64,000 nucleotides of DNA from assembly GCA_038869515.1 (NCBI GenBank), contig JAWCQZ010000003.1:126884-190883 (forward strand), read 5' to 3'. The notes beneath the pieces were generated by a model that was not told the DNA's origin, did not search any database, and saw only the letters and a list, made by a program, of their open reading frames with translations. Each line of letters begins with the position of its first letter. Position 1 is the stretch's first letter. The translations under genes were made by a program, and so were the position numbers. Positions 4,520 through 5,359 of the stretch are shown piece after piece. The stretch is from Halobacteria archaeon (GTDB lineage: Archaea > Halobacteriota > Syntropharchaeia > JACQPP01).

Positions 4520-5359
4520 ATGGCATCCCCCCGGCGCCCGGTCCGAGTCGCGTTCCTGGAGCTGGGGGTCATCGGCGCCTCGCAGTTGCTCGAGAACCTG
4601 CTGGACGAGCGCGCCGACCGGCCGGACCTGGAGGTCCGGGCGTGGGGCTCGGGGACCAAGATGCAGGAGCCCCAGGCGGCCATCGCCGATGAGGTCGTCA
4701 CGTGGTCGCCGGACCTCGCCGTCCTCTCCTGCCCCAACGCGGGGCTCCCGGGGCCCGCCCGGGCGTGGAAGGCGCTGGCGTTGGCCGGTCCGACGCTCGT
4801 GGTCTCCGACGGCCCGGCCCGGAAGGCCGCCCCGGAGATGGAGAAGGCGGGGGCGGGCTACATCCTCCTCACTGGCGACGTGATGCTCGGCGCGCGCCGG
4901 GAGTTCCTCGACCCGACCGAGATGGCGCTCTTCAACGCGGACATCCTGAAGGTCCTGGCGGTCTGCGGGGCCCTCCGGCTCCTCCACGAGGAGGTGGACC
5001 GGGTCGTCGCGGCCCTGGCCGGCGGCAAGAGGCCCGCCCTTCCGCGGATGGTCGCCGACGGCCCGACGGTGGTGGCGCGAGCGGGCTTCTCCAACCCCTA
5101 CGCGGCCGCCAAGGCGCTGGCGGCCCACGGGACCGCGGAGGCGGCGGGCGCCCTCGCCCACGAGGCGTGCTTCAAGATGGAGCGGCCGGAGGATTACCTC
5201 CCCGCCTGCGCCGCGGTCCACGAGATGGCGAGGGCCGCGGCGCGGCTCGCGGACGAGGCGCGGGAAGCGGAGAAGGGGGCGGACCGGGTCCTCCGGACCC
5301 CCCACGGAAAGGACGGAAACATGCTGCGCAAGTCGAAATTGATGGAAAAGCCCGGCTAG
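4520..5359 (+). CDS. mtd: F420-dependent methylenetetrahydromethanopterin dehydrogenase
   Basis: 280 aa from the ATG at 4520 (track start 4493 is a TTG extension). Motifs LLDERADRPDLEV, GDVMLGARREFLDPTEMALFNADILKVLA, FSNPYAAAKA, ASAHEM and VLRTPHGKDG match the Mtd family as I recall it. Confidence 0.85.
   Translation: MASPRRPVRVAFLELGVIGASQLLENLLDERADRPDLEVRAWGSGTKMQEPQAAIADEVVTWSPDLAVLSCPNAGLPGPARAWKALALAGPTLVVSDGPARKAAPEMEKAGAGYILLTGDVMLGARREFLDPTEMALFNADILKVLAVCGALRLLHEEVDRVVAALAGGKRPALPRMVADGPTVVARAGFSNPYAAAKALAAHGTAEAAGALAHEACFKMERPEDYLPACAAVHEMARAAARLADEAREAEKGADRVLRTPHGKDGNMLRKSKLMEKPG

What the first reader, a model, noticed from the sequence alone, without database searches (positions are those of the whole stretch)
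4520..5359. F420 / tetrahydromethanopterin gene set scattered across the window in a high-G+C genome
mtd (4520-5359), cofE (24980-25795), cofC (27618-28289), mptA (61862-62839) and a PTPS/QueD-like gene (60872-61198) indicate F420- and H4MPT-dependent C1 metabolism. Together with MC1 chromatin protein and a DUF835 protein this points to a Methanomicrobia-like euryarchaeon, yet G+C this high is unusual for cultivated methanogens I know. The lineage may be under-described.
Basis: inference. Interest (0 to 1): 0.5.

Follow-up and report, generated by a model that had tools for sequence, protein, structure and literature searches.

The report
Leftover methanogen C1 genes, aerobic archaeon
The F420 and tetrahydromethanopterin genes are real, but they are a still-working leftover of the methanogen one-carbon pathway in an oxygen-respiring, non-methanogenic archaeon of the recently named order Ca. 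Aerarchaeales, not a sign of a new methanogen.

Summary
Genome G+C is 69.2%.

The organism is not a methanogen. In this 90.9%-complete genome I found no McrA, MtrH, Ftr or FwdB. I did find:
- a haem-copper oxidase;
- a complete copper monooxygenase operon (hmoCAB-like), ending 6.5 kb upstream of mtd, just outside the window.

The held GTDB taxonomy puts the genome in one family with GCA_016207465.1. Leu et al. (Nat Commun, Oct 2025) place that genome in order JACQPP01, which they name Ca. 'Aerarchaeales' (class Syntropharchaeia). Its CuMMO-bearing genus Ca. 'Aerovita' has G+C 0.68-0.69. This window is therefore a new hot-spring genome of a named but very sparsely sampled lineage.

Of the H4MPT pathway it keeps Fae-Hps, Mer, F420-dependent Mtd, Mch and SHMT, plus full F420 biosynthesis. 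Mtd is conserved, under purifying selection and vertically inherited. The most likely role is housekeeping C1 and formaldehyde handling.

One small new point: the paper's supplement scores 'mtd' through the bacterial mtdB orthologue and records it absent here, so the F420-type Mtd seems to have been overlooked.

The parts
4520..5359 (+). mtd: F420-dependent methylene-H4MPT dehydrogenase (279 aa)
   Evidence: PF01993 E 2e-100. NF002162 328 bits, above the 297 cut-off. Aligns end to end with M. kandleri Mtd, PDB 1qv9, E 1.9e-66. Keeps 63 of 67 highly conserved columns. dN/dS 0.19 against the sister species.
5356..5811 (-). FpoO-like small protein, tail to tail with mtd (4-bp overlap of the 3' ends)
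   Evidence: PF10621 E 8e-11. The same arrangement occurs in sister genome G001 (L002).
24980..25795 (+). cofE: F420-0:gamma-glutamyl ligase
   Evidence: PF01996 E 4e-72; TIGR01916 281 bits, above the 181 cut-off.
27618..28289 (-). cofC: 2-phospho-L-lactate guanylyltransferase, in a minus-strand run pyrB-pyrI-cofC-guaB
   Evidence: PF01983 E 6e-36; TIGR03552 156 bits, above the 105 cut-off. Neighbours identified.
61862..62839 (-). mptA: GTP cyclohydrolase MptA, first step of the pterin part of H4MPT
   Evidence: TIGR00294 411 bits, above the 220 cut-off; the FolE2 model scores only 165 bits.
60872..61198 (-). PTPS/QueD-family protein (108 aa), either QueD for archaeosine or a pterin-branch PTPS
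   Evidence: PF01242 E 9.5e-22. TIGR03367 (QueD) 73.5 bits, below the 89.25 cut-off. A C-x3-HGH motif is visible in the translation.
61243..61572 (+). MC1 chromatin protein (lineage marker of Halobacteriota-type euryarchaea)
   Evidence: PF05854 E 9e-30.
1484..2692 (-). 7TM sensor with DUF835, next to glnK (2745-3083) and amt (3080-4390)
   Evidence: PF05763 E 6e-31, PF16927, PF00543, PF00909.
43067..48546 (+). Start of the complex I / Fpo-like operon: nuoA, B, C, D, a rhomboid gene, nuoH, nuoI. No F420- or NADH-input subunit is encoded here.
   Evidence: PF00507, PF01058, PF00329, PF01694, PF00146, Fer4. The nuoD frame is intact.

Best explanation
The window comes from a hot-spring genome of the family Ca. 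'Aerarchaeaceae', most likely the genus Ca. 'Aerovita' (order JACQPP01 = Ca. 'Aerarchaeales', class Syntropharchaeia). This is an aerobic, non-methanogenic descendant of methanogen-like ancestors that carries a bacterial-type copper monooxygenase.

The F420/H4MPT genes are a vertically inherited, functional remnant of the ancestral methyl branch.
- Shown: full F420 biosynthesis (CofC, D, E, G, H). The tested H4MPT-synthesis markers are present (MptA, RFAP synthase). The central C1 enzymes are kept (Fae-Hps, SHMT, Mer, Mtd, Mch).
- Not found: both ends of the pathway (Mcr, Mtr, Ftr, Fwd).
- Inferred role: SHMT and Fae load C1 units onto H4MPT. Fae captures formaldehyde released by the fused hexulose-phosphate synthase during pentose synthesis. 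Mer supplies methyl groups. Mtd and Mch interconvert methylene, methenyl and formyl levels, with F420 as hydride carrier.
- Not explained: how N5-formyl-H4MPT leaves the pool without Ftr, and how F420H2 is recycled without Fno or a recognised FpoF.
For: Gene identities.

Lineage:
- G002, listed as 'same family', is GCA_016207465.1 by contig and coordinates. The paper places that genome in JACQPP01 / Ca. Aerarchaeum.
- The order holds three genomes. CuMMO subunit A is found in G000 and G001 only, the same split as the paper's Aerovita and Aerarchaeum.
- G+C is 0.692, against 0.68-0.69 in the paper's Supplementary Data 1.
- The hmoCAB-like operon is at C3:122069-124859. Its nearest named relatives are Gram-positive bacterial CuMMOs, in line with the paper's bacterial HMO placement.
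- CoxA scores 525 bits.

Pathway inventory:
- Not found: McrA, MtrH, Ftr N- and C-domains in all three family genomes, FwdB.
- Found: Mch, Mer at 353 bits against a 348.7 cut-off, Fae-Hps, SHMT, RFAP synthase, CofH, CofD and CofG.

Functional and vertical:
- 63 of 67 near-invariant Mtd columns are kept.
- dN/dS is 0.19 against G001 and 0.34 against G002 (60).
- In the Mtd tree the family forms a fully supported clade. It sits among other Syntropharchaeia and Methanocellales, apart from the Archaeoglobi and TACK clades.

Housekeeping rather than CuMMO-linked:
- Fae, in roughly 400-aa frames, occurs in 29 of 31 class genomes.
- Mtd and Mch also occur in the CuMMO-free G002.
Against: - No known outlet for formyl-H4MPT was found. 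Ftr and Fwd are missing and no PurN-type transformylase scores over its cut-off, so an anabolic use for Mtd and Mch is not demonstrated.
- No Fno/NpdG was found.
- Mtd and Mch score markedly lower against their family profiles than in the rest of the class (336 against 403-429 bits; 238 against 435-444 bits). Mtd also sits on a long stem branch (0.56). This could mean changed specificity rather than only G+C-driven drift.
- Assignment to the genus Ca. Aerovita is indirect. I did not compare the genome with the published CM-1 and CG-1 MAGs.
- The genome is 90.9% complete, so every 'not found' is provisional.
Confidence: 0.72

Rival explanations
1. Dissimilatory C1 route. The CuMMO oxidises methane or another C1-yielding substrate. 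An alcohol dehydrogenase makes formaldehyde. Fae, F420-Mtd and Mch oxidise it on H4MPT, formate is released and oxidised by the FdhA-like enzyme, and Hps allows RuMP assimilation. That would make this an archaeal counterpart of bacterial methanotrophy.
For: - Fae-Hps, Mtd, Mch and Mer are all present.
- A 924-aa FdhA/NuoG-like molybdopterin oxidoreductase is present.
- mtd lies 6.5 kb from hmoCAB here and 8.7 kb in G001.
- The paper's argument against methane rests on the absence of the bacterial genes mdh, folD and mtdB. Its supplement scores 'mtd' as K10714, EC 1.5.1.-, so the F420-type Mtd was apparently not weighed.
Against: - No Ftr/Fhc or Fwd, so there is no known step from formyl-H4MPT to formate.
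- Fae-Hps is near-universal in the class, including strict anaerobes.
- Mtd and Mch are kept in the CuMMO-free sister genus.
- mtd and hmoCAB are separated by seven unrelated genes, mostly on the other strand, so they are not one operon.
- CuMMO subunit A groups with Gram-positive bacterial sequences, and the paper places the complex in the short-chain hydrocarbon monooxygenase clade.
- The paper finds no methanol dehydrogenase.
Confidence: 0.08
2. Changed cofactor or substrate. As in haloarchaea, which keep MptA, RFAP-synthase-like and Mch-like genes after becoming aerobic, the Mtd and Mch of this family now work on a modified pterin or a different substrate.
For: - The family's Mtd and Mch score about 70-95 and about 200 bits lower than those of class relatives.
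- The Mtd stem branch is long and its amino-acid composition is flagged as deviant.
- There is one genus-wide replacement of an otherwise 95%-conserved Arg by Trp at position 83.
- The Haloferax control genome matches Mch and RFAP synthase but not Ftr or Mtd, so a truncated set in an aerobe has a precedent.
Against: - 63 of 67 near-invariant Mtd columns are retained.
- The NCBIfam equivalog cut-offs for Mtd and Mer are still passed.
- MptA scores as MptA rather than FolE2.
- The composition shift is what a 69% G+C genome would produce anyway.
Confidence: 0.1
3. Missed methanogen or anaerobic alkane oxidiser. The mcr, mtr, ftr and fwd genes exist but lie in the unassembled 9% of the genome.
For: Completeness is 90.9%. 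The genome is in 14 contigs.
Against: - Four separate gene sets would all have to be missed.
- Ftr is also missing from the two other genomes of the family.
- The paper's four Aerarchaeaceae MAGs also lack these genes.
- The genome encodes a haem-copper oxidase and an O2-dependent monooxygenase.
Confidence: 0.03
4. Decaying relics. The H4MPT genes are on their way to loss and no longer function.
For: The paper describes the order as losing the methanogenesis pathway. The family's Mtd and Mch are divergent.
Against: - The reading frames of mtd, mch, mer and fae-hps are intact.
- dN/dS is 0.19-0.34.
- Both cofactor pathways are maintained.
Confidence: 0.04

Closest known systems
Ca. 'Aerovita' / Ca. 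'Aerarchaeaceae' (order JACQPP01 = Ca. 'Aerarchaeales', Syntropharchaeia), Leu et al., Nat Commun 2025, PMC12533140
   Same: - Same GTDB family as GCA_016207465.1.
- hmoCAB-like CuMMO of bacterial type.
- Haem-copper oxidase.
- No Mcr, Mtr, Ftr or Fwd.
- mch and mer present.
- G+C about 0.69 and genome about 2 Mb.
   Different: - A different assembly and source: 14 contigs from a hot-spring metagenome. The paper's Aerarchaeaceae MAGs have 56-299 contigs and come from a copper mine, groundwater and an aquifer; its two Yellowstone Lake MAGs belong to the other family.
- Its Mtd is only 85% identical to the nearest known relative, so it is a separate species.
- The F420-type Mtd and Fae-Hps shown here are not recorded in the parts of the paper's tables that I could read.
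Methyl branch of the archaeal Wood-Ljungdahl / methanogenesis pathway, as in ANME-1, Ca. Syntrophoarchaeum and Archaeoglobus
   Same: Homologous Mtd, Mch and Fae-Hps; the same cofactors, F420 and H4MPT. The Mtd tree is compatible with vertical descent within the class.
   Different: Truncated at both ends: no Ftr or Fwd, and no Mtr, Mcr or CODH/ACS. It keeps a bona fide Mer, which two class relatives searched do not have over the cut-off. It sits in an aerobe.
Haloarchaea (Haloferax volcanii), another aerobic descendant of methanogen-like ancestors
   Same: High G+C, aerobic respiration, MC1 and F420 biosynthesis. They retain MptA, RFAP-synthase-like and Mch-like genes without Ftr (control rows).
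   Different: The Haloferax control has no Mtd or Fae match. The proteins here are Arg-rich rather than strongly acidic (by eye from the translations; not measured).
Bacterial methylotroph H4MPT formaldehyde-oxidation module (Fae, MtdA/B, Mch, Fhc)
   Same: Fae and Mch homologues are present, and a CuMMO lies in the same genome.
   Different: The dehydrogenase is the F420-dependent archaeal Mtd, not the NAD(P)-dependent MtdA/B. There is no Fhc or Ftr. Fae is fused to Hps, as in methanogens.

Membership tests
F420-dependent methylene-H4MPT dehydrogenase (Mtd, PF01993 / NF002162) | Full-length match above the curated family cut-offs | tested here: met
   PF01993 336 bits over profile positions 1-273 of 274. 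NF002162 equivalog 328 bits, above the 297 cut-off.
F420-dependent methylene-H4MPT dehydrogenase (Mtd, PF01993 / NF002162) | Retention of residues that are near-invariant across the family | tested here: met
   63 of 67 columns that are at least 95% conserved in 114 homologues are retained. The exceptions are K14E, R83W, I123L and V209A. End-to-end alignment with PDB 1qv9.
F420-dependent methylene-H4MPT dehydrogenase (Mtd, PF01993 / NF002162) | Both cofactors can be made by the organism | tested here: met
   CofC and CofE, CofH, CofD, CofG, MptA and RFAP synthase. All are over their curated cut-offs.
F420-dependent methylene-H4MPT dehydrogenase (Mtd, PF01993 / NF002162) | Catalytic activity with F420 and methylene-H4MPT | not testable with these tools
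   Needs an enzyme assay.
Methanogen / Mcr-dependent methane or alkane metabolism | Methyl-coenzyme M reductase (McrA) | tested here: not met
   No PF02249 match in the 90.9%-complete genome. The control genomes do match.
Methanogen / Mcr-dependent methane or alkane metabolism | Complete H4MPT C1 pathway (Fwd, Ftr, Mch, Mtd, Mer, Mtr) | tested here: not met
   Ftr N and C domains not found. FwdB has no hit over the cut-off. MtrH not found. Mch, Mtd and Mer are present.
Ca. 'Aerarchaeales' / Ca. 'Aerovita' (PMC12533140) | Phylogenetic placement with JACQPP01 genomes | tested here: met
   The held GTDB kinship puts G000 in one family with G002. G002 is GCA_016207465.1 (JACQPP01...) by contig and coordinate match. 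The order has three genomes. The Mtd clade has 100% support. I did not run my own multi-marker tree.
Ca. 'Aerarchaeales' / Ca. 'Aerovita' (PMC12533140) | hmoCAB copper monooxygenase of bacterial type (genus Aerovita) | tested here: met
   AmoC, AMO and Monooxygenase_B in C-A-B order. Nearest named homologues are Gram-positive bacteria at 51% identity or less.
Ca. 'Aerarchaeales' / Ca. 'Aerovita' (PMC12533140) | Haem-copper oxygen reductase; G+C 0.68-0.69; genome about 2 Mb | tested here: met
   COX1 525 bits. G+C 0.692 and 1.98 Mb, against Supplementary Data 1.
Ca. 'Aerarchaeales' / Ca. 'Aerovita' (PMC12533140) | ANI/AAI to the type MAGs CM-1 and CG-1 | not tested
Bacterial-type H4MPT formaldehyde oxidation (Fae-MtdA/B-Mch-Fhc) | Formyltransferase/hydrolase complex (Fhc, an Ftr homologue) releasing formate | tested here: not met
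   No PF01913 or PF02741 match in G000, G001 or G002.
QueD (6-carboxytetrahydropterin synthase) | Score over the equivalog cut-off | tested here: inconclusive
   TIGR03367 73.5 bits against the 89.25 cut-off. PF01242 is passed. A C-x3-HGH motif is present.

The most novel reading that the evidence does not exclude
The retained Fae, F420-dependent Mtd and Mch, together with the FdhA-like enzyme and Hps, might form an archaeal formaldehyde oxidation and assimilation route fed by the neighbouring copper monooxygenase. In that case these archaea would oxidise methane or another C1-yielding substrate aerobically. The published argument against methane looked only for bacterial mdh, folD and mtdB, so it would need revisiting.
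Probability: 0.08. Interest if true: 0.9.

Novelty: new member of a known kind. Interest (0 to 1): 0.38.

Why it matters
The genome is one of only three species-level genomes of its order in the held GTDB 232 set, and the most contiguous of them (14 contigs, with the 16S rRNA gene on the same contig as the window). The order is the only archaeal group so far proposed to oxidise hydrocarbons with oxygen.

Three points follow from showing which parts of the methanogen C1 machinery survive the switch to aerobic life (Fae-Hps, Mer, F420-Mtd, Mch, and the F420 and H4MPT cofactor-synthesis genes tested) and which do not (Mcr, Mtr, Ftr, Fwd):
- It gives a second natural example, besides the haloarchaea, of how methanogen-derived lineages were remodelled.
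- It corrects an apparent gap in the published gene table: mtd was scored through the mtdB orthologue.
- It defines an open biochemical question: what Mtd and Mch are for when Ftr is gone.

As a discovery in its own right it is modest, because the lineage and its headline metabolism were published in 2025.

Tried and rejected
- Haloarchaeon: rejected. This was my first guess from the high G+C and MC1. The control Haloferax genome lacks Mtd and Fae, and the kinship points to Syntropharchaeia.
- Ca. Angelarchaeales (CuMMO-bearing Thermoplasmata, PMC9038741): rejected. I considered it when the CuMMO appeared. The kinship, the bacterial-type PF02461 match and the Leu et al. paper all fit better.
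- Operon link between mtd and hmoCAB: rejected. Seven unrelated genes, mostly on the other strand, lie between them.
- Horizontal origin of Mtd: not supported by the tree. Deep nodes are unresolved, and the three family rows have deviant composition.
- Expression: no RNA holder listed among public runs.
- Fno/NpdG: only a 19.9-bit hit.
- PurN-type transformylase: only 22.7 bits.
- FwdB: only a 39-bit hit, to a general molybdopterin oxidoreductase.
- RNA scans: Rfam and ARAGORN found only one tRNA-Ser in the window.
- A stop codon flagged inside the Mch match is simply the end of the gene. The frame is intact.
- nuoD: my first GC3-based gene caller missed it, and my first hand translation of the region was in the wrong frame. 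Re-reading the correct frame showed an intact gene.
- Not used: structure prediction, complex prediction and read laying. They would not have changed the conclusion.

Full report
**1. Observation**

- The ORF at 4520-5359 (+) matches Pfam MTD over its whole length (E 2e-100). It passes the NCBIfam equivalog cut-off for F420-dependent methylene-H4MPT dehydrogenase (328 against 297 bits).
- It aligns from end to end with the solved Methanopyrus kandleri enzyme (1qv9, E 1.9e-66).
- CofE (24980-25795), CofC (27618-28289, minus strand) and MptA (61862-62839, minus strand) all pass their equivalog cut-offs.
- The 108-aa PTPS-family protein (60872-61198) passes Pfam but not the QueD equivalog cut-off. 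It could be QueD for archaeosine synthesis or a pterin-branch enzyme.
- MC1, DUF835, S15, uL15, IlvC and GuaB are confirmed. HflX was not seen among the ORFs I scanned.
- G+C is 0.65-0.72 along the window and 0.692 for the 1.98 Mb, 14-contig genome, which is 90.9% complete with 0.14% contamination.

**2. What organism this is**

Mtd has very few close relatives among 5.8 billion proteins: four at 81-85% identity, one at 65%, and everything else at 55% or less.
- The 85% relative lies on CAZANW010000038.1 (GCA_964486625.1). The 65% relative lies on JACQPP010000090.1 (GCA_016207465.1).
- By contig number and coordinates these are the genomes that the held GTDB set calls 'same genus' (G001) and 'same family' (G002).
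- The whole order contains only these three species genomes.
- Leu et al. (Nat Commun, Oct 2025; PMC12533140) place GCA_016207465.1 in order JACQPP01 of class Syntropharchaeia and name the order Ca. 'Aerarchaeales'.
- Their genus Ca. 'Aerovita' carries a bacterial-type copper monooxygenase (hmoCAB), respires oxygen, lacks Mcr/Acr, CODH/ACS and most of the methanogenesis pathway, and has G+C 0.68-0.69.

The window's genome fits on every point I could test.
- An AmoC-AMO-Monooxygenase_B operon lies at C3:122069-124859. It ends 2 kb before the window starts and 6.5 kb before mtd.
- Its A subunit is closest to a few metagenomic sequences, and then to Gram-positive bacterial CuMMOs at 51% identity or less.
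- A haem-copper oxidase subunit I is present.
- McrA is not found.

None of the paper's MAGs has 14 contigs. The DNA of this window is held by hot-spring metagenome runs of 2024. It is therefore a new, more contiguous genome of the lineage, and by Mtd identity a separate species.

**3. What is left of the pathway**

In this genome I found:
- Mch, intact and about 300 aa (C10).
- Mer, just over the equivalog cut-off at 353 against 348.7 bits.
- A 407-aa Fae-Hps fusion.
- SHMT.
- RFAP synthase.
- CofG, CofH and CofD.

I did not find:
- Ftr, either domain, in any of the three family genomes.
- FwdB.
- MtrH.
- Fno/NpdG.
- A PurN-type transformylase.

The paper's presence/absence table agrees on ftr, fwd, mtr and cdh.

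**4. Is Mtd functional, and where did it come from?**

- The protein keeps 63 of the 67 alignment columns that are at least 95% conserved in 114 other Mtd sequences.
- dN/dS is 0.19 against the sister species and 0.34 against the sister genus.
- In a maximum-likelihood tree of 93 Mtd sequences, the three family members form a fully supported clade on a long stem (0.56 substitutions per site).
- That clade sits in an unresolved group with other Syntropharchaeia and Methanocellales, and is separate from the Archaeoglobi and TACK clades.
- This fits vertical inheritance with accelerated, partly composition-driven change. The tool flagged the three rows as compositionally deviant.
- The family's Mtd and Mch also score lower against their profiles than those of class relatives.

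**5. Mechanism**

- Shown: the genome can make F420, carries the H4MPT-synthesis markers I tested (MptA, RFAP synthase), and encodes enzymes for methyl-, methylene-, methenyl- and formyl-H4MPT interconversion and for loading formaldehyde and serine-derived C1 units.
- Inferred: this is housekeeping C1 metabolism. Fae is fused to hexulose-phosphate synthase, as in methanogens, where the pair makes pentoses and traps the released formaldehyde. Fae in frames of about 400 aa occurs in 29 of 31 genomes of the class.
- Mtd and Mch are also kept in the CuMMO-free sister genus. The module is therefore ancestral and not tied to the monooxygenase.
- Unexplained: what becomes of N5-formyl-H4MPT without Ftr, and how F420H2 is recycled.
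- Candidates seen in passing are a 493-aa FrhB/FpoF-like iron-sulfur flavoprotein and a 924-aa FdhA/NuoG-like molybdoenzyme.

**6. Comparison with the literature**

- The paper's supplement lists 'mtd' under K10714 with EC 1.5.1.-, which is the NAD(P)-dependent bacterial MtdB. It scores this absent in Aerovita and in most Syntropharchaeia.
- By contrast, the Pfam Mtd family is present in 27 of 31 genomes of the class.
- K00319 and fae do not occur in the stored supplement text. That file was truncated when stored, so this is not proof of omission.
- The paper argues that methane is an unlikely substrate because bacterial mdh, folD and mtdB are absent. The archaeal F420-type Mtd and Fae were apparently not weighed.
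- I still rate a C1-dissimilatory role as unlikely (about 8%), for the reasons in section 5 and because Ftr/Fhc is missing. It is nevertheless the most novel reading the data leave open.

**7. Verdict**

The implied methanogenic or complete C1 metabolism is wrong, and the lineage was named in 2025. This is a new member of a known kind, with a minor annotation correction and one open biochemical question.

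Noticed in passing
G000:C3:122069-124859 (L040:10070-12860), 2 kb upstream of window position 1: A complete copper membrane monooxygenase operon in C-A-B order. It is preceded by a diiron AurF/ferritin-like oxygenase gene (L040:8875-10062). The same operon lies 8.7 kb from mtd in sister genome G001. This is the published hallmark of Ca. Aerovita.
   Followed up: yes
window 2745-4390 (-): An ammonium transporter (amt) and P-II (glnK) pair, plus a 7TM-DUF835 sensor, lie between the CuMMO operon and mtd. The arrangement is conserved in G001. An ammonium transporter a few kb from a CuMMO of unknown substrate is worth noting.
   Followed up: no
window 5356-5811 (-): A stand-alone FpoO-like gene overlaps the 3' end of mtd tail to tail, also in G001. 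In my recollection (not checked here), FpoO is otherwise a subunit of the Methanosarcinales F420H2 dehydrogenase. The paper's table records fpoO in only one genome.
   Followed up: partly
window 45938-46678 (+): A rhomboid protease gene sits inside the complex I operon, between nuoD (44574-45692) and nuoH (46737-47840).
   Followed up: no
G000:C5:35571-37052 (-) (L127:1138-2619): A 493-aa protein with two 4Fe-4S motifs plus FrhB_N and FrhB_C domains, a possible F420H2-oxidising module. The paper states that the family lacks fpoF.
   Followed up: partly
G000:C2:271544-274318 (-) (L042:133-2907): A 924-aa molybdopterin oxidoreductase with N-terminal 2Fe-2S and 4Fe-4S domains. This is the architecture of an NAD-linked formate dehydrogenase alpha subunit or of NuoG.
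   Followed up: no
G000:C1:495219-496256 (+) (L028:1477-2514) and L028:659-1480: The bona fide Mer gene overlaps by 4 bp the end of a SAM hydroxide adenosyltransferase (DUF62) gene. This suggests co-transcription and a link to methyl-group and methionine metabolism. The two class relatives searched (G004, G005) have no Mer over the cut-off.
   Followed up: no
window 10871-12016: A cluster of toxin-antitoxin genes: HicA (10871-11098) and HicB (11099-11449), and ParE (11747-12016) with a small upstream ORF (11534-11737).
   Followed up: no
window 21727-23727 (+), 32474-33829 (+), 35487-36812 (+): Three long ORFs (666, 451 and 441 aa) with coding-like G+C pattern but no Pfam match.
   Followed up: no
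window 6687-8177 (-): A 496-aa protein with two nitroreductase-family domains, downstream of sepF. The arrangement is conserved in G001.
   Followed up: no
PMC12533140, supplementary file 3: The 'mtd' row uses K10714 (EC 1.5.1.-, mtdB). It is therefore zero for most Syntropharchaeia, although PF01993 Mtd is found in 27 of 31 class genomes searched here.
   Followed up: partly
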